The translations under genes were made by a program, and so were the position numbers. This document shows positions 1,370-35,022 of a stretch of 35,037 nucleotides of DNA, piece by piece. Source of the DNA: Chiloscyllium plagiosum (lineage: Eukaryota); assembly GCF_004010195.1 (NCBI RefSeq), contig NC_057719.1:5472513-5507549 (forward strand), in the 5' to 3' direction. The number at the start of each line of letters is the position of its first letter. Positions within the stretch are counted from its first letter, which is position 1. Under the pieces are notes generated by a model that ran no database searches, was not told the origin of the DNA, and saw nothing but the letters and a program-made list of their open reading frames with translations.

Positions 1370-2410
1370 AAATTTACACAAGGATCCAGTCTTTATCCCT
1401 GTTTTTCTCAACTACATTCTACCTTTGACAATATAATCCAAAACCATTTCATGTTTCACCTGTATGGTTGTATAATTTTTTTTAGTTCATCTCACTTCAT
1501 TGTCACAAAGCTTATCTGACATACACTATTGGATAAGCAAAAAAATCCTTCGGCTAAATATTGGAAAGGCTAAAGCCATTGTCTTCGATTCCTGTCACAA
1601 ATTCCATTCCCAGTTTACCATTTCCAAATTTAGTTTCTGTCGTATTTGAACAAGGCTGTTCACAAATTTGGGGTTTTCTTTAAAGTTCAGTGGGTTTTTG
1701 ATCATCTACTTACACCGTAATGAACATTGCTCAACATGAGTTGACCTTCCCTCACCTTATGAGATGCTAAAATCCTCATTGATACCTTTTTGTCACAATT
1801 AGACTTGAGGCTTCCAATGCTGTCCTGGCTGGTCTTCTGTTTTCCACCCAATATAAGTGTCTGCGCATCTGCAACTCTGCTTTCAGTATTTTAACTTGCG
1901 TCGAATCTTAGTCACTCATCACCCCACTGCTTACCATTGTTCTCTGGCTCTCCATGTGACAAAATCTTAACTTAAAATCCTCATCCTTGTCTTCAAATCT
2001 CTCTGTAGCCTTGAACTAAAATAAAGAACTATGGATACTGAAAGTCTGATACAAAGCCAAAAATGCTGGAGAAACTCCGGTCTCGCAACATCTGTGGACA
2101 GAAAGCAGAGTTAACGTTTTGAGTTTAGTGGCCATTCTTTGGAACTGAGATACTCTACATTGCCTTGTCTCCTATCTGTGTAAGCTTCACCAGTCACAGA
2201 AGCCTTCACAATTCCTGCAGTCCAATTCTGATTTGCTACATATCCCTAATTTTAATCACACCACTTAGGTCGGTTGTGCCTTCAGTTGCTTTGGCTCAGA
2301 ACTCTGGAATTTCTTCACGAAACTTTCTCTATCTCCTCTTTTTAAGATGCTCCCCAAACCCACCTCTGATTAAGCTTTTTGTCATCTTTCCTGATTTCTG
2401 CCTTTATGGT
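1370..2410 (+). mobile_element. Degenerate L2-clade LINE 3' portion, interrupted at about 2018-2149
   Basis: Decayed L2 motifs: DI.YW.SKK.LRLNIGKAKAIVF (about 1518-1590), DAKILIDTF..RL.ASNAVLAGL (about 1764-1836) and HPT...LWL.....LKILILVFKSL (about 1918-2003). Confidence 0.7.
2018..2149 (-). mobile_element. Solo PLE terminal repeat, family C (degenerate hammerhead)
   Basis: aaagaact...tgctggagaaactc...atctgtggacagaaagcagagttaacgtttt...gaactga is similar to the copies at 13455, 16365 and 22410. Confidence 0.7.
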
Positions 2411-2599
2411 TTATAAGCATTTGCATGCATTCTATAAATTTAAATTGTTATGATTCATCATGAAGATATCTGCAAGTTAAGTCAGGAGGTCATGCTTGAG
2501 TGGTTCTAATGCTTTGTTTTAAAAGTGTTTAAATTCCAAGATGAAGAAAGGCTTAAAGTAGTTGAGACCCATGTTTCCTAATCACTTTCTCTCACCAGT

Positions 2600-2737
2600 G
2601 TGATGTTTTAATATTAATGCAGATATGTTGAATGGAGAGGAAGTGGGAACAGGGTATTGAGTTGGACATTCAGCCCTAATCATATCGAATGTCAGAGTAG
2701 GCTTGAATGGGCTATTCCTCTTCTATGTTTCTATGTA
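2600..2737 (+). mobile_element. CR1-type 3' tail fragment
   Basis: atatcgaatgtcagagtaggcttgaatgggctattcctcttctatgtttctatgt has the form of a CR1 3' tail. Confidence 0.5.
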
Positions 2738-2794
2738 TGCATCAAGAAGAAAATACTCCATGGAGCATTTACAGCTTTGAAGGAAAAGATGATA

Positions 2795-2843
2795 AAAATC
2801 ACACAACATGTCTAACAGGTTTATTTGGAGGCACTAGCTTTCA
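2795..2843 (-). mobile_element. Fragment of PLE terminal repeat, family B
   Basis: aaaatcacacaaca..aacaggtttatttggaggcactagctttc matches 3396-3455 and 22586-22643. Confidence 0.7.
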
Positions 2844-3172
2844 GTCAGAGAATTATCCAATTATAAATAGAGGCCAAGCGCAGATCTTGTGAAATTGACA
2901 AATACTGGTTTATTTCGCACTATATCATGGGGAAGAGAAATTGACAGGACTGGTCCAGAACAGACTGTGCTCAGTTAGGTAAAGGATTCTATTCCCCAAG
3001 CTGCAGATACAGACAGTTTTTATAGCGTTACAGTGGTGTAGTGTTAATTACAAGACAATATGAAGTAAATTACATTCAATGGAAAACAATTGGTTGTCCG
3101 GTAGTAGCAATCAGGTAATAATTGTTACAGGAGCTTCCATTCCACTGCTAGAGCAGGTGCTAATGTCCAGTA

Positions 3173-3265
3173 GTTTAGATCAGAGTAGTGCTGGAAAAGC
3201 ACAGCAGGTCAGGCAGCATCCGAGAAACATGAAAATCGATGTTTCGGGCAAAAGCCCTTCATCAG
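3173..3265 (-). mobile_element. Solo PLE terminal-repeat insertion, family A, with hammerhead core and 14-bp TSD
   Basis: The minus strand reads ctgatga-a-gggc-tttt-gccc-gaaa-catc. gctaatgtccagta occurs at 3159-3172 and 3265-3278. Confidence 0.85.
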
Positions 3266-3350
3266 CTAATGTCCAGTATCCTGGTTTCAATGGATCTGCA
3301 AGGTGGTGTGCATTCTTGTCAGGTATCTGGGTGCCACTCTGTCTATAGTA

Positions 3351-3550
3351 GTCATGATTTGGAGATGCCGGTGTTGGACTGGGGTGTACAAAGTTAAAAA
3401 TCATACAACAACAGGTTATAGTCCAACAGGTTTAATTGAAAGCACACTAGCTTTCGGAGCGACCTGATGAAGGAGCGTCTCTCCAAAAGCTAGTGTGCTT
3501 CCAATTAAACCTGTTGGACTATAACCTGGTGTTGTGTGATTTTTAACTTT
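3351..3550. mobile_element. Fold-back (inverted) PLE terminal-repeat element, family B
   Basis: Arms of about 65 bp at 3390-3454 and 3486-3550 are near-perfect reverse complements. The centre contains ctgatga-a-ggag..ctcc-aaaa-gcta-gtg. Confidence 0.85.
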
Positions 3551-3831
3551 TTCCACTCTCTAGGTAGGCTTTGTGGGGCTTTAGTACCTGAGACACTGGG
3601 GTTGCCCTCAGGGCTGCAGGAGCAGTGATGCTATTGTGAGGTAGGAGGCCTGTTATCAGATCATCTATTCTTTCAGTCTGGAAGCTGTTCAGGTAATGTC
3701 TTGTTTTGCTGTTTAGTTCCTGAGCTGGTTGTGGTCAAGTTGAGGTATTATGGATGTGCTGTGTTTTGTGAAGAACAGACATGGTTTCTGTGAACAAGTA
3801 GTGGGCAGGCAGAGTGTTTTTTTTTCTTCCA

Positions 3832-3999
3832 CACTTTCGAAGTGCTGCTTCTTCATCAGGTAGTTCATCACAACCACCCGATGAAGAAGCAGTGCTTCAA
3901 AAGCTAGTCCCGCCAAATAAACCTGTTGGACTATAACCTGGCGTTGTGAGATTTTTAACTTTGTCCACCCCAGTCCAAAACTGGCCCCTCCAAATCATG
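3832..3999 (+). mobile_element. PLE terminal repeat, family B, with a short inverted head
   Basis: Same sequence as 9280-9412, preceded by an inverted copy of the hammerhead region (3834-3865). Confidence 0.8.
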
Positions 4000-4717
4000 A
4001 AGGAGAAAAAGACAGTCCTGGGGACCACTGCTTGTAAAAATATGGCTTCAATACTAGGAAAGAGGATGAAAAATGATGGGAGAGAGAGTAAGGGTTTAGA
4101 AGTAAGAAGCAATGCCTCAATGGACAGGCTATTTTTATATATCTAATCCAGGAGCGCGTTGACTTCAGAAATGGGAGTCACTGTGAATGTGTATTTTGTG
4201 GCAATAAATTTATTGCGATGGCTGGTTAGATATATTTGGCACAAAAGAGGAAGCTAAAGCATTTTGGAATGCAGGTGCAGTGAAGAAGATTTGGTAGCGC
4301 CATCTAAGATTAGAGGGAGTGGCTAGGTCATGAATGTTAATGGACAAATAATCATCTAGGCTTGAACTGTGAATGATAAGAGATGGTCAGTGTTGGTAGA
4401 ACCTACTTGATATCTGAAAAAAAACTGCAGCTAGGATTAGCTGAACATATTTCATTGCAGTTTATTAAATGTCGGTTTGTCCTTGAGGAATTTAATCGAA
4501 GAATACACTCTCCCATTGACTAGTTTTGATAGTGTTATCTTCTGAATACTTATGCTGACTGAAAAGTAAGTAATTAATTTCTTGCCACAGCAGTCTTCAA
4601 ATTTGGGTTGATGTTAAATATTTCAGCAATTATTAAATAACCGCTCCTGTTGGCTTCTGTTTTAAATTGTATGGAGATGAGCTTGCAATAGGTACCACAT
4701 TGTTCCTTACTAGAAGT

Positions 4718-5660
4718 TTTCATCATTTATATAAATGATTTGAATGCGAGCATAAGAGATATAGTTAGTAAAGTTGCAGATGACACCAAAATTGGAGGTG
4801 TAGTGGACAGTGAAGAAGGTTACCTCAGATGGGCCAATGGGCTAAGAAGTGGCAGACGGTGTTTAATTTAGATAAATGTGAGGTGCTGCATTTTGGGAAA
4901 GCAAATCTTAGCAGGACTTATGCACTTAATGGTAAGGTCGTAGGGAGTGTCGCTGAACAAAGAGACCTTGGAGTGCAGGTTCATAGCTCCTTGAAATTAG
5001 AGTCTCAGGTAGATAGGATAGTGAAGAAGGCAATTGGTATGCTTTCCTTTATTGGTCTGAGTATTGAATACAGGAATTGGGAGGTCATGTTGAGGCTGTA
5101 CAGGACATTGGTTAGGCCACTGTTGGAATATTGCGTGCGATTCTGGTTTCCTTCCTATTGGAAAGATGTTGTGAAACTTGAAATGGTTCAGAAAAGATTT
5201 ACAAGGATGTTGCCAGAGTTGGAGGATTTGCGCTATAGGGAGAGCTTGAATAGGCTGGGGCTGTTTTCCATGGAGCATCGGAGGCTGAGGAGTGACCTTA
5301 GAGGTTTATAAAATCATGAGGGGCATAGATAGGATAAATAGACAAAGTCTTTTCCCTGGGGTTGGGGAGTCCAGAACTAGAGGGCATAGGTTTAGGGTGA
5401 GAGGGGAAAGATATAAAAGAGACCTAAGGGGCAACATTTTTATGCAGAGGGTGGTATGTGTATGGAATGAGTTGCCAGAGGAAGTGGTGGAGGCTGGTAC
5501 AATTGCAACATTTGAAAGGCATCTGGATGGGTATATGAATAGGAAGGGTTTGGAGGGATATGGGCTGGGTGCTGGCAGGTGGGACTAGATTGGTTGGCAT
5601 GGACGAGTTGGACCGAAGGGTCTGTTTCCGTGCTGTACGTCTCTATGATTCTATGACTCT
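4718..5660 (+). mobile_element. 5'-truncated CR1/HER1 LINE (RT C-terminal part to tail)
   Basis: Encodes YINDL..SKVADDTKIGG, then ORFs 4829..5311 and 5292..5588 with KCEVLHFG, DLGVQVH and LEYCVRFW, and ends in a ctatgattctatgactct tail. Confidence 0.95.
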
Positions 5661-6019
5661 TAAGTTGCTATTTTATGAAATAATTGCTAGGCACTGATGC
5701 TTATTTCAAGGTAGAGATTATAACTTCTATTGATAAGTTAAGTGCTATTTGAATGTATCTAGTCTCTGCTCAACTGAAATGCAAATTTTAGTAGCCATTG
5801 TGGAAGATGGCTGAAAGCAAGTATAAGTTACCGTGGTATGAAACTCTGGTTAGTAGAGCTTGGGGATTTGCGGGATGCTGATTTATGAATTCGTGAGGAT
5901 TGATGAAGTTAAGGAATATAAAAACATTGCTTTGGGACCAATGCAAGAGACGGTCATGTTCGTCTAATAGAACAAAATTGAATTAAGAATTTCTCGATGA
6001 GTTTACTGCAATTCATTTA

Positions 6020-6370
6020 CAGGATGAGGTGTCTCTACCAATTTCCATCCCTAATTGCCCTCGGATATGTGGTGGTGAATTATTTTCTTAAATAAATTCT
6101 TGTGATTTGCTAGGTCATTTCAGAGGTCGGTTAAGAATCTGCAGTAGCTTAAAAGCTCAGCAATGGGCGGATGGCAGTTTTGTTTCCTAAATGACATTAG
6201 TTGTCCAGAGGAGTTAATCCAGAGGTTTCAGTTAATGTTTATATTATGAACTTTGTTAATAGTCGATTTTAAATTTCCCAGTGGATTGAGATTTGAACAT
6301 GTGTCTGCAGTACATTAGTCCAGGCCTTTGGCTTGTTGCTGCAGAACGTAACCAATAGCATTTATACCTT
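6020..6370 (-). mobile_element. Degenerate SINE or CR1-tail-derived repeat
   Basis: ccatccctaattgccctcggatatgtggtggtgaa resembles the element end at about 28114-28150. The family is not determined. Confidence 0.4.
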
Positions 6371-8669: not shown

Positions 8670-8754
8670 CTCCAAAATGTTATCACTGCGGAGAAGTTGA
8701 TCGTCAACTTGTCAGACCACACGCTTCAATCAGAAGAGAAGTCAACTCCTACAG

Positions 8755-8903: not shown

Positions 8904-9285
8904 AAGTTTGTGGGTGAATTTGTACTTGCAGGATTACATTTTATTTTGCTCAAAAACTGCATGAATCCGTGTAAGATTCTGTAAATCCCTTTTTTATATT
9001 AGAATCAGTCTGAACATTGGGGCACAGGCAGCCTCACATTGGCCACCTAACATCTTCAGTGCATTATCTGGGCTGACATGGCACCTATTGTTAAAGTTCA
9101 CTTGAGAATGCAACTTCAAAAAAGTTCTGAGATTTACATATGAAAGAACTGAAACCAACATGGTCATTCTAACAGATGAGAGACTTCACAAACAATCCAG
9201 GTCTTTTTCAATACATAATTTCAGTCATATCACACTGTAAACTTTTACTATAAATTCTGTGTCTTACGATTTTGTTCTCCACAAC

Positions 9286-9320
9286 CACCTGATGAAGGAG
9301 CAGTGCTCCGAAAGCTGGTG
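9286..9320 (+). ncRNA. Minimal hammerhead ribozyme motif (family B; G at the cleavage position, so probably inactive)
   Basis: cac-CTGATGA-a-ggagc-agt-gctcc-GAAA-gc-tg-gtg: stem I cac/gtg, stem II ggagc/gctcc. Sister copies have gcta at the cleavage site. Confidence 0.75.
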
Positions 9321-9455
9321 CTTCCAAATAAACCTGTTGCAGACTATAACCTGGTGTTGTGTGATTTTTTTAACTTTATACACCCAGTCCAACACCGACA
9401 CCTCCAAATCATGTGTCAGAAATAGTTATGTAGTCAAGAAAGAATTTCCAATAGT

Positions 9456-11174: not shown

Positions 11175-11404
11175 ATGATTTGGAGGTGCTGGTGTTGGAC
11201 TGGGGTGGACAAAGTTAAAAATCACACAACACCAGGTTATATTCGAACAGGTTTATTTCAAATCACTAGCTTTTGAAGCTGCTTCTTCATTAGGTGATTA
11301 TGAAACAGAATCTGCTCCACAACCACCTGGTGAAGCAGCACTTTGAAAGCTAGTGATTCCAAATAAACCTGTCGGACTATAACCTGGTGTGTGTTTTTAA
11401 CTTT
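11175..11404. mobile_element. Fold-back PLE terminal-repeat element, family B
   Basis: Inverted arms from 11211 to 11404 with decayed hammerheads on both strands. Degenerate TSD taccttcttatg (11166-11177) / taccctattatg (11404-11415). Confidence 0.82.
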
Positions 11405-13454: not shown

Positions 13455-13637
13455 TAAAAGCCAGCGGTCTGCAGGGACCGGGAATCAGAAACAAAAGCAG
13501 AAACTGCAGGAAAATCTCAACAAGTCTGGCAGCATCTGTGAGAAAGTGAACTTAACATTTCGGGTTCAGTGATACTTCAGTTCTGAAGAACTGGTTGATA
13601 GTTGCCAGACCTGCTGTGTTTTTCCAGCAGTTTCTGA
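13455..13637. mobile_element. Fold-back PLE terminal repeat, family C, inside an old CR1 remnant
   Basis: cagaaactgcaggaaaatctcaacaagtctggcagc is inverted as gttgccagacctgctgtgtttttccagcagtttctg. The centre reads cttcagttctgaag. Confidence 0.7.
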
Positions 13638-15149: not shown

Positions 15150-15958
15150 TTTCAGAGAAAGTGAGGACTGCAGATGCTTGAGGGTCATAGTCAAAAATGT
15201 GGCACTGGAAAAGCCAGTCAGGCAACATCCGAAGAGCGGGAGAGTCGACCTTTCAGGAATGTGGAGGGGGAAGGGGACTGAGAGATAAATTGAGGGGTAG
15301 GGCTGGGGGAAGGCAATAGGTGGATGCAGGTGGGGGGCAATTGTGATAGTTTAGTGGAGAGGGTGGAGCAGATAGGTGGGAAAGAAGATGGGCAGGTCAA
15401 AAAGGTGGTGATGAGTTGAGTGTTGGATCTAGGATGAGGTGGGTATGGGGAGATTTGGAAACTAGTGAAGTCAGTGTTGATGCCGTGTAGTTGTAGGGTC
15501 CCAAAGCAAAAGTTGAGGCTTCCTTCCTCCATTTGGAGGATGGTTTTGATTTGGCGGTGGAGGAGGCCCAGGACTTGCATGTCCTTGGTGGAGTGGGAGT
15601 CGGAGGGGGAGTTGAAGTGGTTGGCCACAGTTCGGTGGGGTTGTCTGGTGCGTGTGTCCCAGAGATGTTGCCTGACTGCTCTGCAAGTTGGCATCCTGTC
15701 TCCCTGATGTAGAGGAGACCACATCAAGAGCAACCAACACAGTAGATGAGGTGGGTGGGTGTGCGGAAAATCTCCACCATCTCTCCATCCTCCTTCCCAT
15801 CTACCTGCCCCCAAGCCCTACCCCCACCCCTCTATTTATCTCTCAGAACCATTCTCCCTCCACATTCCTGATGAAGGGCTTATGCCCAAAACATTGATTC
15901 TCCTGCTCTTTGGATGCTGCCTGACCTGTTGTGCTTTTTCAATGCCACACTTTTCGAG
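15150..15958 (-). mobile_element. PLE family A, GIY-YIG 3' fragment with an inverted second terminal repeat
   Basis: ORF 15218..15814 HLWDTRTRQPHRTVANHFNSP..DMQVLGLLH matches ORF 32546..33343. 15780-15958 is the terminal repeat in the opposite (+) orientation, with ctgatga at 15868. Confidence 0.88.
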
Positions 15959-16362: not shown

Positions 16363-16520
16363 AAAATAAAACAAAGAACTGCGATTGCTGAAGATCTGAA
16401 ACAAAAACAATTGCTCGAGAAACTCAGCAGAACGAAGAGTCACTGGACTCAAAATGTTAACTCTGCTTTCTCTCAAGATTCTGCCAGATTTGCTGAGATT
16501 TTCCAGCAATTTCTATTTGA
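16363..16520. mobile_element. Fold-back PLE terminal repeat, family C
   Basis: aattgctcgagaaactcagca is inverted as tgctgagattttccagcaatt. It contains stem II gagtc-actg-gactc followed by aaaa-tgtt-aac. Confidence 0.75.
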
Positions 16521-19380: not shown

Positions 19381-20317
19381 TAAGTGACCTTAGAGTTCCC
19401 AATATTTAGTTGGAGGAGATTTTTGGTTATCCAATATTGGCTGTCAGACAAATTGTAAAATTACAAAGTGAAAAGGTTGAGAGAAGTGATGATGAAATGG
19501 AACACATATTGTCTGTAGAATCTGAAGTTATATTCTTGGATGATGCTGTCAAGTTGCAGCAAGAAAATGACAAATAATCAGAGACCAAAAATAGTTCCTT
19601 GGGTTGGGGGATTCCAGAGGCAATGTTGTAAGAATGGTAAGTGAAGCTACATGCTTCAATTGTTTGCGGAACAAATGGAACCAAAATAGAATAGTTTCTA
19701 AAGTGGACAATAGAGAAAATGGTTTGGAGGGAGTAGTATGATCGACCTTATCAAGCATTGTGAAAAGGAAGAGATTGATGGGGGGGTGGATATGTCAATG
19801 GATTCCATGTCTATAGTGAAGGGAAGGCAGCTGGAGCCTGTCAACTGGAAATTCTGAAACAGACAAAGTGTCAGAAGAATCTTGGATAGAAGTGGGGAAG
19901 GATTGGACAAGGACAGAAAAAAATGTCAAGTTGAGGTAGAAAGAGATCAGACGGAAACAATGGATCTTCCTGGGCAGCTCTGTTTATAGATTTTGGGAAG
20001 GCGATAGAAGTGGGACTGTGAGCTTGGAGGCAGTGAAGGGAGATCACCAAATGAAATGAGATTAGTGATCATTGTGTATACAATAGCCTGGTGTTCAGTG
20101 GTAGGATTATGGTCATCACCTCCAGGAGATGAGCGGAAGTGTCAGAGAGCTGGCGCTTATCCTCCACAATGACATGGTCAGTATGTCAGATAACAACAGC
20201 ATCACTGTTATCAACAGGCTTAATTAAAAGTCAGGGTTGGATCTGAGAGCACCGAGTGCATTCTGTTCAGAAGGAGATACGTTTGAATGGGTAAGGAGGG
20301 GGCAGAGAAATTGAGGT

Positions 20318-20394
20318 CTTTTGCCCGAAACGTCGATTTTGCTGCTCGTCGGATGCTGCCTGAATTGCTGTGCTCTTCCAGCACCACTGATCCA
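20318..20394 (+). mobile_element. Solo PLE terminal-repeat fragment, family A, with 17-bp TSD
   Basis: ggcagagaaattgaggt occurs at 20301-20317 and 20395-20411. The insert begins cttttgcccgaaacgtcga. Confidence 0.88.
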
Positions 20395-20904
20395 GGCAGA
20401 GAAATTGAGGTAACCAATGTCACTTCAACAGTTCTCGATGAACAGCTTGAGTGCAGACAAAAGATCAGAGAGAGGGGTCCGGGTGGAAGAGAGTATTGGA
20501 GGTGAGTAAAGGCATCTGTGGGACGGGGAGAGGATTGTTGTCCAAGAAATAGAACAGAGGTGGCAATGCAAAAAAGGTTCAGTGTCATGTCATGCATGAA
20601 ATTCATTGAAGTGGGGGCTCAGGAAGATAAAACTAAGACCTTTGCTGAGCACAGAATGTTTAGCATCAGAGAATGGAATGATAATTAATACATGACAGGA
20701 AGTAGGGTTAGGCAAGGGGATGAAGTCAGAGGGAAGGGCAGGGGAAGAAGATTCCAGAGGAGCATGAGTATCGTGCATTCCTTAATGCCTGCAAGGAAAA
20801 GAAAATTTATTTTTAGAATGTCAAATGAGCCAGAAGATGAAGTAGATTGGGGGTAGGTCAGCTCTGAACCAACGTGAGGGCATGCTGATGGAGAGTGATA
20901 GAGA

Positions 20905-22108
20905 GAGTGTTATAGAGTCAAACAGCATGGAAACAAACCCTTTGTTCCAACTCATCCATGCTGACCTAGTTTCCTCAACTGAACTTGTCCAATTTGCCTG
21001 TTTTTGGCCGGTATCCCTCTGTACCTTTCTTAACCATGTATCTCTCCAAATGTCTTTTAAATGTTGCATTTGTACTTGCCTCTACCACTTTCACTGGCAA
21101 CTTGTTCCATATACATACCACCTTCTGTGTTAAAAAGTCGCTTCTCAGATTCCTTTTAAATCTTACCCCTCTCACCTTAAACCTATTAGAAAGCGAGGAC
21201 TGCAGATGCTGGAGATCAGAGTCGAGAGTGTGGTGCTGGAAACACAGCAGCTCTCCTACTCCTCGGATGCTGCCTCATCTTAAACCTATGCCCTTTAGCT
21301 TCAGACTTCCCTACCCCGGGGAAAAGACCATAGCTATTCACCTTATCTATTTCTCTCATGATTTTATAAACCTCATAAGGTCAGCCTATGCTCCAGGAAA
21401 AAAGTCTCAGCCTATTCAGCCTCTCCTTATAACTCAAACCCTCCAGTCTTGGTAATATCCTTGTCAATTTTCTTTACACCCTTTCCACTTCAGTAACATC
21501 GTTCCTATGGCAGGGTACTCCGAACGTGGCTTTACCATTGTCTTGTACAGCTGTAGCATGACATCCCAACTCCTATACTCTGTGCTCTAACCAATGAAGA
21601 CAAATATGCCAAATGTCGTCTTCATCACCCTGTCTACCTGAGATGTCACTTTCAAAGAACCTATACCTGTATCATTGGGTCTCTCTGTTTGACAACATTC
21701 CATAAGGCCCTACCATTAACTGTGTAAGTCCTGCCCTGGTTTGTCTTACCAAAATTCAACACCTTGCACTTATCTGAATTAAACTCCATCTGTCATTCCT
21801 TAGCCCACTGGCTCAGTTGATCGAGAACTCATTGTACTCTTAGTAAATCTTTTCTGCTGTCCACTATATCACCAATTTTGGTGTCATCTGCAAACTTACT
21901 AACCAGGCCTCCCAAATTCTTATCCAAATCATTTATGTAAATGACAACAACAGTGGACCCAGCACCAGTCCTTGAAGCACATCGCTGGTCACAGGCCTCA
22001 AGTCTGAATGATAATCCTCTGCCACCACCCTCTGTTTCCTGCTGTCGAGCCAATTAGCTAGCTCTCCATGGATCTCATATGATCAAACCTTATTAACCAG
22101 TCTACCAG
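20905..22108 (-). mobile_element. CR1 LINE, RT to 3' tail
   Basis: ORF 21829..22053 contains IYINDLDKNLGGLVSKFADDTKIG, and ORF 20975..21175 matches the CR1 C-terminus. Confidence 0.92.
21187..21273. mobile_element. Short bipartite (inverted) family A PLE terminal fragment with 16-bp TSD
   Basis: ctcaccttaaacctat (21171-21186) / ctcatcttaaacctat (21274-21289). The insert switches strand at about 21250. Confidence 0.82.
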
Positions 22109-22582
22109 GTCAAGAGTGTGCATATGATGACGCACGGACTGAGTGTGGATCTCAGACTGCAATGAGGAACGTTGTCTGAGGAACGTAGTACATCTTGGAG
22201 ATAACCTATGATCCTGGATGTATTCAAAACACGAAGGACACACCTTCATTTGGAATCCACGTAGGGTGAGACTACTGAGAGAGTCACATGATGTGGTTGC
22301 GGAAGTGAATTTTAGCATAAATTTTGTCAGACCCCAGACGTGACAGTGAAAGTTGTAATGGTGAATAAGAAAAGAGATTAGAATGGGAGTCCTGTTGCAG
22401 AGAGGAGCAGAACAAAAGAAACAAAGAATTGTGAATGCTGGAAATAAAAAACAAAAACAGAGATTGCTGGAAAAACTCTGCAGGTCTGGCAGTATCTGTG
22501 CAGAGAAAGCAGAGTTAACGTTTCTGGTCAGAAATCAAGAGTGAAAGTAATCAATGAATACATCAATGCTTAATGCCTCTAG

Positions 22583-22814
22583 TTAAAAATCACACAACAC
22601 CAAGTTATAGTCCAACAGGTTTAATTGGAGGCTCACTAGCTTTAGGAGCGACAGTCCTTCATCAGGCGATTGTGGAGGACAAAATTATAACGCATAGAAT
22701 TTATAGCAAAAATTTACAGTGTGATGTAACTGAAATTATACATTGAAAAATACCTTGATTGTCTGTTGAGTCTTTCATCTGTTCGAATACCATGATAGCT
22801 TCACTTCTTTCAAG
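22583..22814 (-). mobile_element. PLE family B 3' fragment with 9-bp TSD
   Basis: Antisense to about 9140-9376. tgcctctag occurs at 22574-22582 and 22815-22823. Confidence 0.85.
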
Positions 22815-23000: not shown

Positions 23001-23234
23001 CAGAAAATAATAAATGCTACTGATTTATTTTTCACTATTGTTGGTCGAAGATGATGTTTGTTTGCTTCATGCACTTGTTAATTATTTGTCTTCTTTTGTG
23101 TTTAATCATGCTTGATTTCAGCTGCACTTAATGCCTGATATAATTAGCAAGATTAGTTGTGCTCAGGAAGTGCAAGGACATTAATTATCTAATATAACAA
23201 TCTAATATAATTATCTAATGTAAGCGAAGTATTG

Positions 23235-25095
23235 AAAGTCTGAAATAAAAAGAGAATGTGCTGGAAATCCTGAACAGGTAGTATTAGTGGAGAGAGATAC
23301 AGTCTCAATGTTTTGAGTCAGGTGTGACTCTTAGAATTGAAAGAGCATAGGGATGCTGGGTTTAATGCTGGCAAAAGATGGACCGTTGGTAGAAGAATGA
23401 TAAAAGGGAAAACCTGGGATAGAATAATGGGTGGGAGAGATCATATTACAAAGATATGTATTGGAAGGCAAAGGGAGTGGTTTTTCATTGTGGTTGTTGT
23501 AAGTTTGCTCACTGAGCTGGCAGGTTTGTATTCAGACGTTTTGTCACCATACTAGATAGCATCATCAGTTTGCCTCCGGTGAAGTGCTGGTGTTCTGTCC
23601 CACTTTCTACTTGTGTGTCTTGGTATGTTAAAGTGGGTGATATTTTTTCTAGTTCTTTTTCTCAAAGGTTGGTAAATGGGATCCAAATCAATGTGTTTAT
23701 TGATGGAGTTCCGGTTTGAATGCCAGGCCTTCAGGAATTCCCGTATGTGTCTTTGTTTAGCCTGTCCCAGGATGGGTGTGTTGACCCAGTCAAAGTGGCG
23801 TCCTTCTTCATCTGTTTGTAAGGATATTAGTGATAATGGGTCGTGTCTTTTGGTGGCTAGTTGGTGTTTGTGTATCATGGTGGCTAGGGTACACTTTTCT
23901 GCCTGTCTGTCCGATGTAGTGTTTGTTACAGTCCTTGCGTGGTATTTTGTAAATGACATTGGTTTTGCTGGTTGTATAGGGTCCTTTAGGTTCATCGATA
24001 ACTGTTTCAATGTGTTAGTAGGTTTGTGGGCTACCATGATACCAAGGGATCGGAGCAGTCTAGTAGTCATCTCTGAGACGTGTGTGATATATGGTAATGT
24101 AGCTAGAGTTTCTGGGCATGTTGTGTCTACTTATTCAGCTTTGTTGTTGAAGAATCAGTGCTTTGTGTTTGTCAAGTATCCACTGTTCTTAAATATGCTG
24201 TCTAGGTATTTTGCTTCTGCTGCTCGTAGTTCCTGGGTGCTGCAGTGTGTTGTGGCCTATTTAAGTGATGTCTAGATGCGGCTCCGTTTGTAGATGCTGG
24301 GATGATTGCTCCTGTAATTGAGTATCTGGTCTGTGTGTGTTGCTTTCCTGTAGACGCTGGTCTGCAGTTCTCCATTGACTGTTCGTTCCACTGTGACATC
24401 CAGGAAGGGAGTCTGTTGTTGTTTTCCTCTTCTTTTGTGAAATTTATGCCAGTAAGGATGATGTTGTAGGTTTCCTTTTAATTTGTTCTGTTTTGTGATG
24501 ACAAAGGTGTCATCCATGTAGTGGACCCAAAGTTTGGGTTGGATCGTGGAGAGGGCTGTTCATTCCAGTCTCTGCATTACTGCTCCTGCTAAGAAGCCTG
24601 ATATTAGTGATCCAATGGTCTTTGTCATTGTAAAGAGACAAGGTAATTGTCCAGAGTGAATATAAATGCAAGAATAATGAACAGCTCTGTATGAAAGCAA
24701 ACATATGAAAAACCAAGATTCAAAGCGGCACATTGTGTAAAAGCAGAACCAAAATAAGGGGTGGGGGCAGTATTCAACACCTGAAAGAGTCTAATTGGAA
24801 GGTAAGATACATTTAGTTTAATTATAATGTGGCATGACAGTGAAAAGAAATGAGGGTATGAGAGTAAGATGTTAAAATAGTAAACCTCGTTACAATGGTG
24901 AGCAACTGGAAACTCTGGGATTTCTCTTCCTCAGTTGTATGATTTTGAGATCACGCTTGGGTCTGAGTGGTTGTGTTCGACAAATGGATCAACCAACCTG
25001 CTTTGTTTTCTCCACTGTAGGGGAGACAATATCACGAACAGTGAATACATTATGCTAAATTGAAAAAAAGTATAAGTAAGTTGCTGCTTTACAAA
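23235..25095 (-). mobile_element. Old PLE GIY-YIG 3' end, split by a younger PLE
   Basis: The minus strand at 24975-25091 reads VKQQLTYTFFNLA*CIHCS*YCLPYSGENK, a decayed FTC...VYCI.C..C.L.YIGET motif. A family C-like terminal repeat lies at about 23235-23340. Confidence 0.6.
23492..24622 (-). mobile_element. PLE family D (Penelope/Poseidon-like): RT C-terminus, GIY-YIG and terminal repeat, frameshifted
   Basis: IGSLISGFLAGAVMQRLE, WVHYMDDTFV, PFLDVTV...TSVYRKATHTDQILNYRSNHP and HQLATKRHDPLSLIS...REFLKAWHS..SINKHIDLDPIYQPL. A hammerhead-like motif lies at 23533-23570. Confidence 0.9.
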
Positions 25096-25389: not shown

Positions 25390-27233
25390 TCATGAGGGGA
25401 CATGAGAAGTTGTTGGCAGATAGGATCAAGGAAAACCCTAAGGCTTTCTATAGGTATATCAGGAATAAAAGAATGACTAGAGTGAGATTAGGGCCAATCA
25501 GAGATAGGAGTGGAAAGTTGTGTGTGGAATCTGAGGACATAGAGGAAGCGCTTAATGAATACTTTTTGTCAGTACTCACCTTGGAAAAGGGAAATGTTAA
25601 TGAGAATACAGAGGTACAGGCTACAAGATTAGATGGGATTGAGGTTGACAAAGAAGAAGGTTTGGCAATTTTGGAAGATCTGAAAATAGAAAAGGCCCTG
25701 GGGCCAGATGCAGTTTATCCTCTGATTCTCTGGGAAGCCAGGGAGGTGATTGCAGAGCCTTTGGCTTCGTCTTTACATCATCATTGTCGACAGCAGTAGT
25801 GTAAGAAGACTGGAGGATAGCAAATTTTGTTTCCTTGTTTAAGAAGGGGAGTCGGGCCAACCCTGGTAATTATAGGCCAGTGAGCCTTACATTAGCTATG
25901 GGTAAGGCGTTGGAAAAGGTTATAATCGTCTGGAAAGGAATAATTAGATTATAGATAGTCAACACGGTTTTGTAAAGGGTAGGCGTGCCTCACTAACCTT
26001 ATTGAGTTCTTCGAGAAGGTGGATGAAGGTAAGGCGTTTTGATAAGCTTCCACACGGTAGGCTATTGCACAAAATAAGGAGTTTCAGGATTGAAGGTGAT
26101 TTAACGGTTTGGATCAGAAATTGGCTAGCAGAAAGAAAACAGAAGGTGGCAGTTGATGGGAAATGTTCATCTTGGAGCTCAGTTACCAGTGGTGTGCCAC
26201 AAGGATCTGTTTTAGGGCCACTGCAAGTGGGCATAGAAGGATGGGTCATGATAAAGGGCTTTTTCCCGAAACGTTGATTTTCCTGCTCCTCGGATGCTGC
26301 CTGACCTGCTTTGCTTTTCCACACTCTCGACTAGTAAATTTGCAGATGACACTAAGGTAGGCAGAGTTGTGGATAGTGTTGAAGGATGTTGTGTTTTACA
26401 GAGGGACATAGATAAGATGCAGAGCTGAGCTGAGAAGTGGCAAATGGAATTTAATGTGGAAAAGTGTGAGGTAGTTCACTTCGGAAGAAGTAACAGGAAT
26501 GCAGAGTACTGAGCTAATGGTAAAATTCTTGGCAATGTAGATGAACAGAGAAATCTTGGTGTTCAGGTGCATAAATCCCTGAAAGTTGCCACCCAGGTTG
26601 ATAGGATTGTTAAGAAGGCATATGGTGTGTTGGCGTTTATTGGGTAGGGGGATTGAGTTTCGGAACCACGAGGGCATGCTTCAGCTGTACAGGACACTGG
26701 TAAGGCCGCACCTGGAGTATTGCGTACAGTTCTGGTCACCGCATTATACGAAGGATGTGTAAGCTTTGGAAAAGGTTCAGAGGAGATTTACTGGGGTGTG
26801 GACTGGTATGGAAGGAAGGCCTTACGAGGAAATGCTGAGGGAAAAGAGGCTGTTTTCGTTGGAAAGAAGAGCTTGAGAGGGGACTTAATCTAGACATATA
26901 AGATAATCAGAGGGTTAGATAGGGTGGACAGTGAGAGCCTTTTTCCTCAGATGGTGAAGGCTATCACGAGGGGACATAGCTTTAAATTGTGGAGTGGTAG
27001 ATTTAGGACAGATATCGGGTAGTTTCTTTACTCAGAGTAGTCAGGGCGTGGAATGACCTGCCTACAACAGGAGTAGACTCGCCGATGTTAAGGGCATTTA
27101 AGTGGGCATTGGACATACGTATGGATAATAATGGAACAGTATAGGTTAGATGGGAATCAGATTAATTTTGCAAGTTGGCGCAACATTGAGGGTCAAAGGG
27201 CCTGTACTACACTGTAACATTCTATGTTTTATG
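25390..27233 (+). mobile_element. CR1 LINE, long ORF2 fragment (RT), disrupted
   Basis: IKENPKAFYRYI, PGNYRPVSL, QHGFVKGR.CLTNLIEF, FDKLPHGRLL, VTSGVPQGSVLGP and KFADDTK, followed by a 3' tail cattctatgttttatgt. It has stops and frameshifts. Confidence 0.95.
26248..26332 (+). mobile_element. Solo family A PLE terminal fragment inserted in the CR1 RT
   Basis: atgataaagggctttttcccgaaacgttgattttcctgctcctcggatgctgcc sits between the GIEGWV and SKFADD codons. Confidence 0.85.
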
Positions 27234-27234
27234 T

Positions 27235-30325: not shown

Positions 30326-31000
30326 TTGACAATGATCCAACTTCCTCAGAGCCAGCTCTCAGAGTGAACAGGATATCTGACTTCTGTTCTTCTCTGTCAG
30401 TCTGGGCTTCCTGATCAGGGCTGTTAATCTGGTCTAATCAGGGAACTCATATTCTGTGAGGTCCACCTGGTTGATCTTGTTGCAATCACTGTATCTCTCC
30501 CCCTCTGAGTCCGAGGACATAGGTCGGTTTTTTTAATAGCTTCTCCTGGGTATTTTAGCACGAAAGTTTCATTCCTCCAACTCTCTACCTTTGATATGGG
30601 TGTCATGTAATGCACAGTAGCTCTCGCACCTGGAGTGGCTTGGAAGAAACTCATTCTCTTCTTCAGGCAGCAAAGACGTTGAGACGGTGATATCTGCTGT
30701 GTCCATCTCAGATTCCAAGGTATCTTGAATGCTTGATGGAGAGGGAGAACCAATGTGTTATAGAACGGTCGGGAGCCAGGTACGTTTTGCTTCGCATCGT
30801 TTGTAAGTTTGCAACTTTCGTATGGCCAGCGTGCTTCTTCAGATTCGTAGCACCTACAAGAACTTTATATGTCACTGGACCTGATCTTGTTTCGGCCATG
30901 CATTTTAACCACACAGGGTCAATCCTATGGTTTCTACGCCAAACTTCATCCCCTGAAGTAAACTGCCTCTCTCCCTTGGCAGAGTCTAGTGTATAGCATT

Positions 31001-31084
31001 GATGTTCTTGAAGCCATTTCAGCCCTGGTTAAATCACATATGGTATATTGTGTTCCGTTCTGGTCACCTCATTATAGGAAGGAT
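31001..31084 (+). mobile_element. Short internal CR1 fragment at the Gypsy deletion junction
   Basis: ctggttaaatcacatatggtatattgtgttccgttctggtcacctcattataggaaggat encodes LVKSHMVYCVPFWSPHYRKD, compared with [20 protein letters not shown] at about 26697-26756. Confidence 0.7.
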
Positions 31085-32537
31085 TACCCAGCTGCAAAAA
31101 GCCATTTATCGTTTTTTAAAATCCCCACAAAAGCAAATTGAGCTGTCGGGTTTCACATTTGGTATGACTGGTTCTGCCCAATATTCAATCTGGACAGGTT
31201 TGATGATTCTTTCGTTTACCAGCCTTCTAATTTCTGCGCCTACTTTTGCCCATATGGCAAACGGCATTGGGCAGGCTTTGCAGAATCGTGGAATTGTTTT
31301 CTGGTCAACCTGCAAGGTGGCCTTGGCTCCTTTGATAGTCCCCAGATCTTCCTGAAAAGTCTTCGATATTTAATTTAGACTTCACTCTGACAGTTATTTT
31401 CTAATCAAAAAATGTTGAGCCAATCTTTCGCAACAAATTTTGCCCCATCAGGCTTGGGCTGGAGCCTTTTACTGCAATCAGTGGGAACTGAACCAGCTAC
31501 TTCTCACAACAGACCGGAACCGAAGCTGTATCCTTAATCTGCAAATGTTCCCTGGTGTAGGTTCTCAATCTAACTGAGATCTTGTGCAACCTTAAAGGTT
31601 GGAGACCAGAGTGAATTTTAGTAAAGGCTGGTTCTGCGATCACTGAAACAGCTATGCCAGTATCGACCTACGTTAGAACCGAGTGACCAGTTAAACGATA
31701 TTTATTTTGATTGGTTCTGATTTGGATGTTGCTAAGCAATTTAACTAATCCAAACCACATGCAGGTTTCCAGGGTGTGCACTCTCCTGGATACTCTGAGC
31801 ACTCTTACTCAGTTTAGGGCTATTAGGACTCTTGCTGTCTCGAGGTTGCCTACCGGCAGCCCTACAATGGCTTATCAGCCCAGATCCTGAAGAAAATCTT
31901 ATTTTTGGCCGAGGCTTGGCTTTGTTTTGGGATTTTGCTGTGGGCTGATCTAGAATCCCTCTATTCAGGATATATTCTGAATGAGTCTATGCAATTGCCT
32001 TCACTCAGGTGGTGTTCGCCAAGCTCAGTCAGCCTAGCGAGCATGTCCACTTCCTTCGGAATACCCTGCAACTCGTATGCTTCACTTGCCACATTTTCCA
32101 ATGATCAAACTAGTTGTAGTGCCTGTTTATAGTCCAGTTGTGCTTCAGCTAGTAGGTGTTTCTGCACGGTTACATCATTCATCCCACATACCAAATGGTC
32201 TTTCAGCATCTCATTAAGTGTTAAACCAAAATGTCACAAGTCTCTACCAGTCATCTTAACCTAGTCAAAAATCCCAATAGGGATTCCTCTAGTTTTTGAA
32301 TTGCCGAGTAAAACTGATAACATCTCAGATTTAGAGGAAGCTTGAGATCATAACATTTCTTAAATAAATCTGTCAACTGTTGAAAGGTTTTATTATCTGG
32401 TGCCTCAGGGAGAGTTAGGATCCTAACAACTGAAAAAGCTGTGGGTCCACAAGCTGTCAGGAGTTGCTTTTCACCTACTCAAATATAAAAAGCATTCTTT
32501 CCACATACTGGGATCAGTCTTTGACGGCAGGATCGAA

Positions 32538-33608
32538 CAATTGAAATGGCCTCCTTCTTCAAAGACCGCAATTTCCCCTCCGACGTGGTCGACGATGCTC
32601 TCCACCGTATCTCCTCCATTTCCCGCACCTCTGCACTTGAACCCCGCCCGTCCAATCGCCACCAGGACAGAACCCCACTGGTCCTCACCTTCTACCCCAC
32701 CAATCTCCGGATACATTGTATCATCCTCCGTTATTTCCACCACCTCCAGACAGACCCTACCACCAGGGATATATTTCCCTCTCCACCCCTATCAGCATTC
32801 AGGAGAGACCACTCCCACCGGGACTCCCTCATCAGGTCCACACCCCCCACCAACCCAACCTCCACTCCTGGCACCTTCCCCTGCAACCGCAAGAAGTGCA
32901 AAACGTGCGCCCACACCTCCCCCCTCACCTCCCTCCAAGGCCCCAATGGATCCTTCTATATCCGTCGCAAATTCACCTGCACTTCCACACACATCATTTA
33001 CTGTATCCGCTGCACCCAGTGTGGTCTCCTCCACATTGGGGAGACAGGCCGCCAACTTGCGGAACGTTTCAGGGAACACCTCTGGGACACCCGCACCAAC
33101 CAACCCAACTGTCCCGTGGCTGAACACTTTAGCTCCCCCTCCCACTCCGCCATTGACATGCAGGTCCTTGACCTCCTCCATCGCCAGACCCTGGCCACAC
33201 GACGCCTGGAGGAAGAGCGCCTCATCTTCCACCTAGGAACCCTCCAACCACACGGGATGAATGTAGATTTCTCCAGCTTCCTCATTTCCCCTCCCCCACC
33301 TTATCTCAGTCCCAACCCTCGGATTCAGCACCCGCCCACTTGACCTGCAATTTTCTTCCCGACCTCTGCGCCCCCACCCCCTCTACGGCCTATCACCCTC
33401 ACCCCCTTCCACCTATCGTATTCCCAGTGCCCCTCCCCCCTACCTTTTATCTCAGCCCGCTTGGCACACCAGCCTCATTCCAGAAGAAGGGCTGATGCCC
33501 GAAATTGTCGATTCTCCTGCTCCTCGGATGCTGCCTGGCCTGCTGTGTTTTTTCAGCACCACATTTTTCAACTCTGGTCTCCAGCATCTGCAGTCCTCAC
33601 TTTCTCCT
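32538..33608 (+). mobile_element. PLE family A (Neptune-like), 5'-truncated, with 12-bp TSD
   Basis: Contains the GIY-YIG ORF and a terminal repeat at about 33470-33608. Flanks are ggcaggatcgaa (32526-32537) / ggcaggattgaa (33609-33620). Confidence 0.92.
32546..33343 (+). pseudogene. C-terminal part of a PLE polyprotein (Cys-rich linker and GIY-YIG endonuclease), 265 aa open frame
   Basis: PLVLTFYP, PGTFPCNRKKCKTC, FTCTSTHIIYCIRCTQCGLLHIGETGRQLAERFREH and LEEERLIFHLGTLQPHGMN. The RT is absent. Confidence 0.88.
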
Positions 33609-33768
33609 GGCAGGATTGAATGGGTCAAGGTTCCCAAATAATGTTATGATGTCAGAAATGTTTATTCCAGGATGACTGTTGTGAGTTAGTTTCTTCAGGA
33701 GCATGTTTTTTTCTCTGGTCACCTGCATTGCCATTCAACTTGATAATGGCTGATCTTTTATAGCAACA

Positions 33769-33913
33769 AGGTAAAAACAATGACTGCAGATGCTGGAAAC
33801 CAGATTCTGGAACAGTGGTGCTGGAAGAGCACAGCAATTCAGGCAGCATCCGGGAACGGCAAAATCGGATGCTGCCTGAATTGCTGTGCTCTTCCAGCAC
33901 CACTGATCCAGAA
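33769..33913. mobile_element. Fold-back family A terminal-repeat element with 13-bp TSD
   Basis: 49-bp arms at 33804-33852 and 33866-33914 with one mismatch. ttttatagcaaca occurs at 33756-33768 and 33914-33926. Confidence 0.92.
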
Positions 33914-33929
33914 TTTTATAGCAACACCC

Positions 33930-34325
33930 TACCTCCTGTTCTCTCCAACTTTATACCTTCGCATTTTTTCCACAAATTTATCTATTTCTTTATAAAAATA
34001 TTCAGTGCCTTCACCTCTACAGCCTTCTGTGGTAGAGAATTCCACAGGTTCACCACACTGAGAGAAGAAATTTCTCCTAATCTCAGACAGAGATGGCCTA
34101 CTGCTTATCCAGAGACAATGACTTCTTGTTCTGGATTTCTCAACTGGGGAACATATCACCCCTGCGCACAGTCTGCCCAGCCCCATCAAATTTTTATGCA
34201 TTTCAATTAGATCTCTCATTCTTCTAAACCAAGTGAATACAGGCCTGTTGACCCAATCTGTCCTCACAAGACAAACTTACCATCCCAGGAATTTGTCTGA
34301 TGAAGCTTCAGTGCACTTCCTCTAT
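33930..34325 (-). mobile_element. Old CR1 3' fragment
   Basis: ORF 33929..34267 FRRMRDLIEMHK...KSRTRSHCL...EIRRNFFSQ matches the CR1 C-terminal region. Confidence 0.75.
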
Positions 34326-34344
34326 AGCTATTATCTTAAAGTAT

Positions 34345-34463
34345 ATCTTGCTCATCACCATCTGGACAAAGCATTTGCCTTGATTGGCATCGCATCTACC
34401 CATTCAGCATTGCTGCCAATGTATTACTGGTGAAGGAATTCGGCATACCCTCCACAAGATGCA
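34345..34463 (+). mobile_element. Fragment of the second-lineage CR1 (as at 28062-28910)
   Basis: TIWTKHLP / ccatctggacaaagcatttgccttgattggc..ccacaagatgca resembles the region encoding DKAARLIG..YKMH. Confidence 0.45.
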
Positions 34464-34479
34464 GGATATGATATGATTG

Positions 34480-35022
34480 TGGATCAGTGGTGCTGGAAGA
34501 GCACAGCAATTCAGGCAGCATCCGACGAGCAGCAAAATCGACGTTTTGGGCAAAAGCCCTTCATCAGGAATAAAGGCAGAGAGCCTGAAGCATGGAGAGA
34601 TAAATGAGAGTAGGGTCGGGGTGGGGAGAAAGTAGCATAGAGTACAATAGGTGAGTGGGGGAGGAGATGAAGGTGATAGGTCAGGGAGGAGAGGGTGGAG
34701 TGGATAGGTGGAAAAGGAGCTAGGCAGGTCGGACAAGTCTGGACAAGTCAAGGGGACAGTGCGGCGCTGGAAGTTTGAGACTAGGAAGAGGTGGGGGAAG
34801 GGGAAATGAGGAAACTGTTGAAGTCCACATTGATGCCCTGGGGTTGAAGTGTTCCGAGGTGGAAGATGAGGCGTTCTTCCTCCAGGCGTCTGGTGGTGAA
34901 GGAGCGGCGGTGAAGGAGGCCCAGGACCTCCATGCCCTCGGCAAAGTTGTTCCCTAACTAGGAGGCACCCAGTCTCCCCAATGTAGAGGAGACCGCATCG
35001 GGAGCAATGGATACAATAAATG
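34480..35022 (-). mobile_element. PLE family A, GIY-YIG 3' fragment with terminal repeat
   Basis: Antisense to about 32990-33560 (RRLEEERLIFHLGTLQPQGINVDF). A hammerhead motif ttc-ctgatga-a-gggc-tttt-gccc-aaaa-cgtc-ga lies at 34537-34570. Confidence 0.9.

What the first reader, a model, noticed from the sequence alone, without database searches (positions are those of the whole stretch)
2018..34570. Four PLE families share a covarying, loop-less minimal hammerhead ribozyme that would need to dimerise
Seen in the sequence, with consensus forms assembled by eye from several copies. Family A: ttc-CTGATGA-a-gggc/gccc-GAAA-CG-TC-ga (3232-3265, 15865, 20318, 26248, 33478, 34537). Family B: cac-CTGATGA-a-ggagc/gctcc-GAAA-GC-TA-gtg (3461, 3875, 9286, 11265-11355, 22635). 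Family C: gtt-CTGAAGA-a-gagtc/gactc-GAAA-CG-TT-aac (pieces at 2110, 13580, 16436, 22514). Family D, one copy: CTGATGA-t-gctatc/ggtgac-aAAA-CG-TC-tg (23533-23570). Stems I and II differ between families but keep pairing, the core is constant, an extra base follows CUGANGA, and helix III is a 4-nt palindrome (ACGU or AGCU) with no loop. Established knowledge: PLE terminal repeats carry minimal hammerheads that can act as dimers. Inference: these are the shark versions, cleaving after GUC, CUA or GUU only when two copies pair.
Basis: partly seen in the sequence, partly recalled or inferred. Interest (0 to 1): 0.75.

Follow-up and report, generated by a model that had tools for sequence, protein, structure and literature searches.

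The report
Penelope minimal hammerheads, mostly copied uncut
The four small self-cutting-RNA motifs are real and sit at the ends of four families of Penelope-like jumping genes, a kind already described; every copy in this window is broken, and the genome's copies were likely made from RNA that the motif had not cut.

Summary
The motifs are real but of a known kind: loop-less type I minimal hammerheads in the terminal repeats (pLTRs) of Penelope-like elements (Cervera and De la Pena 2014). Exact genome-wide matches: A 18,219, B 14,834, C 158, D 203; reversed controls 0. Stems covary between families (31 of 32 cells paired, shuffle mean 18). Corrections: no window copy is a complete ribozyme, stem I of A is only 2 bp, two stem II forms came from decayed copies, and Rfam finds no hammerhead. 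Cleavage and dimerisation could not be tested. The copies argue against cutting on the main route: 258 of 292 sampled copies run 5' past the cut site, and starts pile up at the motif's 5' edge (119 of 190 in a 22-nt span), likely the transcription start. An apparent excess of starts at the cut (193 vs 62) was largely explained by a subfamily with one extra G and by microhomology. In family B a poly(A) site 29-32 nt past the cut is used in a public RNA run (988 of 3,683 reads). The scan has noted this kind 93 times, also in this genome. Low interest.

The parts
2023..2149 (-). Family C pLTR copy, motif about 2110-2145; U4>C, G5>A, G12>A
2793..2842 (-).
3184..3265 (-). Family A copy; 11 core bases intact but starts at C3 (no 5' strand of stem I) and G16.2>A breaks the palindrome
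3352..3461 (-). Family B, left arm of a head-to-head pair, starts inside stem II
3462..3556 (+). Family B, right arm of that pair; G12>A
3834..3861 (-). Family B, short left arm of a head-to-head pair
3869..4000 (+). Family B, right arm with tail; U4>C, G12>A
9277..9413 (+). Family B copy with upstream pLTR; motif 9286-9320, core intact but A17>G (no NUH site)
11175..11302 (-). Family B, left arm of a head-to-head pair; G5>A, G12>A
11315..11404 (+). Family B, right arm; A6>G and a 3-nt deletion
13480..13636 (.). Family C head-to-head pair; neither arm holds a whole core
15155..15762 (-). Family A: GIY-YIG remnant (15434-15762) and pLTR fragment without CUGANGA (15155-15260)
15859..15954 (+). 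Family A copy, motif from 15865; G12>A, G16.2>A
16373..16518 (.). Family C head-to-head pair; + arm motif about 16427-16461 with U4>A, G12>A
20314..20395 (+). Family A copy, 5'-truncated at the start of stem II
21188..21275 (.). Two family A fragments without the core, head to head
22423..22529 (-). Family C copy, 5'-truncated inside stem II
22581..22677 (-). Family B copy, motif 22634-22668; G12>U
23233..23319 (-).
23496..23580 (-). Family D pLTR copy, motif 23533-23568; G12>A and a mismatch in stem II; the reading frame of the element ends inside the motif
23552..24559 (-). Broken family D ORF (RT C-terminal part and endonuclease region), Penelope/Poseidon-like by lack of the cysteine linker
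   Evidence: clade label inferred
26246..26321 (+). Family A copy; C3>A, G8>A
32525..33343 (+). Family A ORF remnant with CX4CX2C linker and GIY-YIG domain (Pfam PF01541, E 0.008, below the curated cut-off), Neptune-like
33469..33608 (+). Family A pLTR after that ORF, motif 33478-33511, with tail; U4>A and a broken palindrome
33769..33914 (.). Family A head-to-head pair without the core
34475..34579 (-). Family A copy, motif 34538-34570; G12>A; GIY-YIG remnant upstream at 34805-35024

Best explanation
These are decayed copies of the loop-less minimal hammerhead that lies in the terminal repeat of four Penelope-like retrotransposon families; in the source elements the motif would cut only when a second copy supplies helix III, likely with help from the element's protein, and most genomic copies were likely reverse-transcribed from uncut RNA. 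Steps: (1) In A, B and C transcription likely starts 4-10 nt before C3, which would cap the 5' strand of stem I at a few bases (inferred). (2) One copy cannot close helix III (sequence plus established structure). A partner can be the other pLTR of a whole element (2,517 nt apart in L207, shown) or a second RNA in the same complex (inferred). (3) Reverse transcription likely primes inside the RNA at two zones about 55-65 and 90-100 nt 3' of the cut (the two 3'-end clusters are shown; the priming is taken from PMC11167929). It runs through the whole motif to the RNA start and leaves stubs of about 100-140 nt, often two head to head (shown). (4) After insertion the motif decays, fastest at the fixed C11.1-G12 CpG (shown). 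Cleavage would then be an occasional or late processing step, not a requirement for copying.
For: Family counts and controls. Covariation between family consensuses: 31 of 32 cells paired, shuffle mean 18.2, 0 of 20,000 shuffles reach it; core differences 0 of 11 in all 10 A/C subfamily pairs while flanks differ by 7-24 bases. PLE context: GIY-YIG ORF before 33478; L207 pLTR-ORF-pLTR, whose 105 longer homologues (E up to 1e-20) mostly carry an RT domain and many a GIY-YIG domain; same-strand PLE protein hits just upstream in 22 of 30 D, 3 of 30 A, 2 of 36 B and 1 of 30 C loci. In 120 evenly spaced 10-kb stretches, copies anchored 3' of the cut reach 5' of it in 146 of 164 A, 49 of 55 B, 44 of 54 C and 19 of 19 D. 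A+B starts fall in -14..+7 of C3 in 119 of 190 (uniform share 9%); starts at the cut +-2 are 5, 1, 4 and 0. A head-to-head partner is seen in 52 of 164 A and 24 of 55 B. G12 is mutated in 15 of 96 A, 12 of 35 B, 12 of 20 C and 4 of 10 D copies. No pile-up of RNA ends at the cut in run X21. PMC11167929 reports protein-assisted cleavage, insertion unaffected by catalytic mutants and no RNA ends at the site.
Against: No cleavage was measured. Cutting followed by re-ligation into a circle would also give copies that run through the site. The raw count of starts exactly at the cut exceeds the neighbour position (193 vs 62); my correction to about 50 vs 40 rests on 60 fetched loci and counting by eye. 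The transcription start is inferred from copy ends and TATA/initiator-like words; a test for an extra cap-derived G was uninformative (9 G, 9 A). The upstream reference for C is weak, so its pile-up is less secure, and D shows none (1 of 19). One of B's two upstream hits (L046) looks like a separate A-type insertion. Poly(A) single-cell reads would miss cleaved products.
Confidence: 0.65

Rival explanations
1. Dimeric cleavage is the main route: the two pLTR hammerheads of a whole transcript pair, cut out a unit-length RNA, and this is circularised and copied more than once round (the model of PMC4209133 and the first reader).
For: The core is invariant across diverging subfamilies and the stems covary. 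A whole element holds two same-strand copies (L207). In B, start, motif and poly(A) site would give a terminally redundant RNA with one motif at each end. One A subfamily has an extra G exactly at the cut, which lengthens stem I to 4 bp.
Against: Re-ligation does not explain the pile-up of starts 30-40 nt before the cut. Only 1 of 20 targeted 10-kb regions held both pLTRs around one ORF. The scaffold is energetically unfavourable without help. No back-spliced or circular joint at the cut was among the joints shown (29 rows not shown).
Confidence: 0.2
2. The motif is kept as a structural signal (RNA-RNA pairing through the palindrome, or a protein or promoter element) or as a passenger, and does not cleave in these families.
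For: Stem I of only 2-4 bp; GUU and CUA triplets in C, D2 and B; frequent head-to-head pairs suggest that two RNAs meet in one complex; the motif overlaps the likely promoter region; PLE clades without hammerheads thrive (PMC8557442 passages).
Against: All 11 catalytic-core bases and an NUH triplet are kept in all 10 subfamily models, which a purely structural role would not obviously require. A related motif cleaves with protein present (PMC11167929).
Confidence: 0.13
3. The hammerhead likeness is chance in abundant repeats.
For: Rfam finds no hammerhead family in the window at E up to 5, and no window copy is complete.
Against: Same place in four families, compensatory changes, shuffle and reversed-pattern controls, and a match to a published class.
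Confidence: 0.02

Closest known systems
[quoted passage not shown]
   Same: Type I topology, no loop 3, palindromic 15.2-16.2, extra base between 9 and 10.1, G10.1-C11.1, many families with covarying stems, mostly single dispersed copies, two copies about 3 kb apart in whole elements, nearby copies on opposite strands.
   Different: Stem II is 4-6 bp (7-8 in the Schistosoma families described) and stem I 2-4 bp (4-5). Exact copy numbers exceed the 2,000-9,000 reported for other genomes. The text read names no cartilaginous fish (figures and supplements not seen).
Poseidon element of Anolis (PAc; Frangieh et al. 2024, PMC11167929)
   Same: pLTR hammerhead, two internal priming sites giving the optional tail, uncut RNA as the main template, no RNA ends at the cut.
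   Different: In PAc the ORF starts in stem II; here the ORF of B starts about 95 nt after the cut (L207) and the frame of D ends inside the motif. A, B and C look Neptune-like.
Penelope of Drosophila virilis and Chlamys-3 (PMC2377424, PMC8557442)
   Same: Transcription start inside the pLTR with a partly internal promoter; tandem and inverted 5'-truncated insertions; 30-40 bp tail.
   Different: Their starts and 5'-UTR introns were mapped; here the start is inferred and no intron was seen in reads. The D. virilis motif has a small helix III.
Non-LTR retrozymes (bioRxiv 10.64898/2026.07.22.740005)
   Same: Type I hammerheads related to PLE pLTRs in vertebrates, including one chondrichthyan genome.
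   Different: Retrozymes are tandem arrays; the window's copies are dispersed stubs and inverted pairs with no tandem array.

Membership tests
min-HHR of PLE pLTRs (PMC4209133) | Core CUGANGA ... GAAA ... UH in type I order | tested here: met
   All 10 subfamily models; no single window copy is complete
min-HHR of PLE pLTRs (PMC4209133) | No loop 3; palindromic 15.2-16.2 | tested here: met
   C-G in 9 and G-C in 1 of 10 models
min-HHR of PLE pLTRs (PMC4209133) | Extra base between positions 9 and 10.1; G10.1-C11.1 pair | tested here: met
   A in A/B/C, U in D; G-C in 10 of 10
min-HHR of PLE pLTRs (PMC4209133) | Short helix I (4-5 bp) and paired helix II, covarying between families | tested here: inconclusive
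   Covariation met, but helix I is 2-4 bp and helix II 3-6 bp; the paper's descriptor figure was not seen
min-HHR of PLE pLTRs (PMC4209133) | Located in the pLTR of a PLE | tested here: met
   A and D in the window, B in L207, C in 1 of 30 loci (L137)
min-HHR of PLE pLTRs (PMC4209133) | Self-cleavage as dimer, none as monomer | not testable with these tools
   Needs a cleavage assay; only folding energies were computed
Rfam hammerhead families | Covariance-model match | tested here: not met
   0 hammerhead matches among 9 hits at E up to 5 in the window; intact copies from other loci were not scanned
Neptune clade of PLEs | CX2-5CxxC linker between RT and GIY-YIG (PMC8557442) | tested here: inconclusive
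   Present in A (window 32525-33343); only its first half in B (L207, deleted after it) and a decayed form in C (L137); absent in D; no tree with named references was built
Non-LTR retrozyme | Tandem units each with a hammerhead | tested here: not met
   No such array in the window; isolated two-unit cases in L119/L120 and L100/L101

The most novel reading that the evidence does not exclude
The family B pLTR works like a retroviral R region: start site, hammerhead and a used poly(A) site lie within about 70 nt, so a whole transcript carries one half-ribozyme at each end, and the palindromic core acts as the pairing signal that joins two RNA ends, or two RNAs, in the dimeric integration complex. 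Cleavage would be a late, protein-gated step, and the many head-to-head stubs would be the record of the paired state. Thousands of solo copies would also lend host transcripts a poly(A) site whose tail a trans-pairing partner could cut off.
Probability: 0.15. Interest if true: 0.6.

Novelty: new member of a known kind. Interest (0 to 1): 0.22.

Why it matters
As a class it is known since 2014, so the motif itself is ordinary. The open question is what PLE hammerheads do in vivo. A genome with roughly 0.9 million pLTR copies and about 140,000 intact-looking motifs (extrapolated from 304 and 47 in 1.16 Mb) lets copy ends serve as a record: here they point to copying of uncut RNA from a start just before the motif, in line with the in vitro result for the anole element. 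The test of the cut-site footprint also shows two traps (an extra-G subfamily and microhomology at inverted junctions) for anyone who reads such a footprint from counts. The poly(A) site in family B makes these stubs possible 3'-end donors for host transcripts.

Tried and rejected
Rfam scan of the window: no hammerhead; the MIR860 and other microRNA hits are the inverted pairs. Family C pattern with a 5-nt loop: 0 matches; B with a 4-nt loop: 6. Pfam was nearly blind to the broken ORFs (1 of 7 proteins; 1 of 4). Cut-site footprint: broad patterns listed 100 of 4,446 (A), 100 of 595 (B) and 100 of 747 (A1) truncated copies; by eye the starts were flat in B and, with a modest bump at the cut. 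Exact patterns gave 193 at the cut and 62 one base later. Of 62 matches inspected in 60 loci that I picked by their flanking letters from the first 100 listed, 30 were whole motifs of the extra-G subfamily and most of the rest inverted junctions with microhomology; the corrected estimate, about 50 vs 40, shows no clear excess. Cap-derived G: uninformative. Longer stem I: a 7-bp distal pairing seen by eye in A1 and a 5-bp one in D were not shared by the other subfamilies and were not tested further. MAFFT put the stems out of register between families, so pairs were counted on structure-anchored consensuses instead. Splicing of the pLTR: no joint among those shown; coverage of the ORF start was 0-7 reads. 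No RNA holder was listed on record for the B element; run X22 laid 0 reads and X23 0 contigs. No whole A, C or D element was recovered. The Lunse paper was not held.
Full report
Observation. All listed places hold copies of four repeat families, and ten more pieces or partner arms turn up beside them. Only three stretches in the window, all in families A and B, keep CUGANGA and GAAA around a recognisable stem II (one search lists five spacings, of which 16388 and 30842 are unrelated), and none passes a strict loop-less hammerhead descriptor. The two copies with all 11 core bases fail elsewhere: 3265(-) has no 5' strand for stem I and a broken palindrome, and 9289(+) ends in CUG. The window is G000:C10:5472513-5507549 in a 3.56-Gb genome, where exact patterns match 18,219 times for A, 14,834 for B, 158 for C and 203 for D, with 0 for each reversed control. 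The strict descriptor finds 11 motifs in 200 kb against 0-1 in 10 Markov controls. Rfam finds no hammerhead in the window.

Structure. Ten subfamily models were built from fetched copies. All have the core, one extra base after A9, G10.1-C11.1, a stem II of 3-6 bp, a loop-less ACGU or AGCU, and GUC, CUA or GUU at the cut; all three fit the NUH rule (PMC6908138, passages). Between one representative of each family 31 of 32 stem cells pair, with changes on both sides at seven of eight positions; shuffles average 18.2 and none of 20,000 reaches 31. The families are few and A and C are related, so this is support, not a probability. Across five A/C subfamilies the core differs at 0 of 11 positions in all 10 comparisons while flanks differ by 7-24 bases, which points to selection in the source elements. 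In inserted copies the fixed C11.1-G12 CpG decays freely: G12 is changed in 43 of 161 copies. Stem I is only 2-4 bp. Stem II forms in monomer folds (closing-pair probability 0.43-0.99), while the double-hammerhead scaffold is 14-30 kcal/mol above the best dimer fold and above two monomers in every model (tertiary contacts are not modelled).

Context. Family A follows a GIY-YIG frame with a CX4CX2C linker at 32525-33343, and the genome gave 141,374 first-look candidates for that domain. Family D follows PLE coding sequence in the window and in 22 of 30 loci. Family B has a whole pLTR-ORF-pLTR copy in L207, with motifs 2,517 nt apart; its ORF has 105 longer homologues at E up to 1e-20, most annotated RT and many GIY-YIG, though L207 itself has lost the endonuclease. 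Family C has an upstream PLE remnant in 1 of 30 loci. A, B and C look Neptune-like and D Penelope/Poseidon-like by the linker criterion in PMC8557442; no tree was built.

What the copy ends show. In 120 evenly spaced 10-kb stretches of contigs C1-C14 (1.2 Mb, 44,475 N) I anchored copies on sequence 3' of the cut, so that the motif was not required: 326 candidates, 304 aligned, 292 after dropping 12 with N at the junction. Of these 258 reach 5' of the cut. Starts cluster at the 5' edge of the motif: 91 of 164 A, 28 of 55 B and 35 of 54 C lie in -14..+7 of C3, against 5, 1 and 4 at the cut +-2; D has 1 of 19 and 0. B has TATAAA 40 nt before C3, and A and C have initiator-like words at -4 (recalled consensus), so the cluster likely marks the transcription start; a cap-G test was uninformative. 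The 3' ends fall in two clusters about 35-40 nt apart, the tail signature that PMC11167929 ties to two internal priming sites. A head-to-head partner is seen in 52 of 164 A and 24 of 55 B copies. Of 162 copies spanning the core, 47 keep the core and key pairs; only 2 of 120 stretches hold two intact same-strand copies, and these are separate insertions. Extrapolated, the genome holds about 0.9 million copies and about 140,000 intact-looking motifs, nearly all without a cis partner.

Cut-site footprint. Two earlier notes report copies starting exactly at the cut in other genomes, so I tested this. Exact patterns of equal stringency gave 193 starts at the cut and 62 one base later. Of 62 matches inspected, 30 were whole motifs of an A subfamily with one extra G at the cut, which turns stem I into four contiguous pairs, and most others were inverted junctions with 1-4 nt of microhomology. 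Scaling by the flanking letters of the 100 listed matches leaves about 50 against about 40 (by eye). A small footprint is not excluded; none is shown.

RNA. In raw poly(A) single-cell run X21, 546 and 442 of 3,683 reads laid on the B pLTR of L207 carry a long non-genomic T run at 5930 and 5933, that is poly(A) 32 and 29 nt past the cut and 15 and 12 nt after an AUUAAA that begins 11 nt past it. The reads come from many copies (63 at 99% identity or better), and the run's species may differ from the window's. No place where many molecules begin or end was listed for B or A, and no poly(A) end was among the loose ends shown for A.

Mechanism and rivals. Best reading (0.65): a conditional, partner-dependent and likely protein-assisted ribozyme at the very start of the element's RNA, bypassed in most copying events. 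Rivals: cleavage and re-ligation as the main route (0.2), a structural or passenger role (0.13), chance (0.02).

Comparison with the literature. PMC4209133 (parts 1-2 of 4 read: abstract, results, discussion; figures and supplements not seen, and they may list cartilaginous fish) defines this class with the same extra base, closing pair and palindrome, and found no monomer and low dimer activity. PMC11167929 (parts 1-2 of 4) found protein-assisted cleavage that is not needed for insertion. PMC6765202, PMC8557442, PMC2377424 and PMC6908138 were seen as passages; bioRxiv 10.64898/2026.07.22.740005 as part 1 of 5 plus passages; Lunse et al. as a title only. Searches for hammerhead + shark + Penelope and Penelope + pLTR + polyadenylation signal each gave one review, and searches gave no paper on these families; the library is incomplete. 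The scan holds 93 earlier findings of this kind in at least 14 genomes, two of those shown from this genome, which already note uncut templates and the poly(A) signal; my searches came before I read them.

Verdict. Real, well supported as a new member of a known kind, with the window's copies inert. Interest 0.22.

Noticed in passing
L327-L346, L347-L366 (for example L333): A family A subfamily with its own flanking variants carries one extra G exactly at the cut site, giving a 4-bp stem I instead of 2 bp plus mismatch; either selection on stem I or one old junction event at the cut.
   Followed up: partly
L207:5930-5950 (-); window 9320-9350 (+) and other B copies: AAUAAA/AUUAAA hexamer 9-11 nt after the family B cut site, with poly(A) reads 29-32 nt after the cut and a GU-rich tract downstream.
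   Followed up: yes
listing, 6 of 100 matches (for example G000:C1:25226591, C3:41429297): The 3' tail of family A elements is joined to family B pLTRs three bases after B's cut site, suggesting a preferred insertion site of A inside B.
   Followed up: no
L207:3442-5990 (-): Whole family B element whose ORF is deleted from the cysteine linker to the 3' UTR, so it lacks the GIY-YIG domain; possibly a non-autonomous form.
   Followed up: partly
window 33585-33608 (+); L207:5885-5915 (-): The pLTR tails of A, B and C contain pyrimidine tracts resembling 3' splice sites, as expected if the motif lies in a 5'-UTR intron; no spliced read was seen.
   Followed up: partly
window 1-686, 4716-5593, 14653-15138, 20909-21658, 25320-26277, 29332-30322: Many fragments of one LINE-type reverse-transcriptase repeat (families D1-D4); CR1-like by recall, Pfam gave no hit on two pieces.
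   Followed up: no
window 8383-8560, 9476-9653, 18820-18908: Three copies of a short repeat that looks like a tRNA-derived SINE (label recalled, not tested).
   Followed up: no
window 30424-31028 (-): Broken frames resembling the C-terminal part of an LTR-retrotransposon integrase (label recalled; no Pfam hit).
   Followed up: no
window 3402-3539: The Rfam MIR860 hit (E 5e-10, below gathering score) is the family B head-to-head pair, a hairpin look-alike rather than a microRNA gene.
   Followed up: yes
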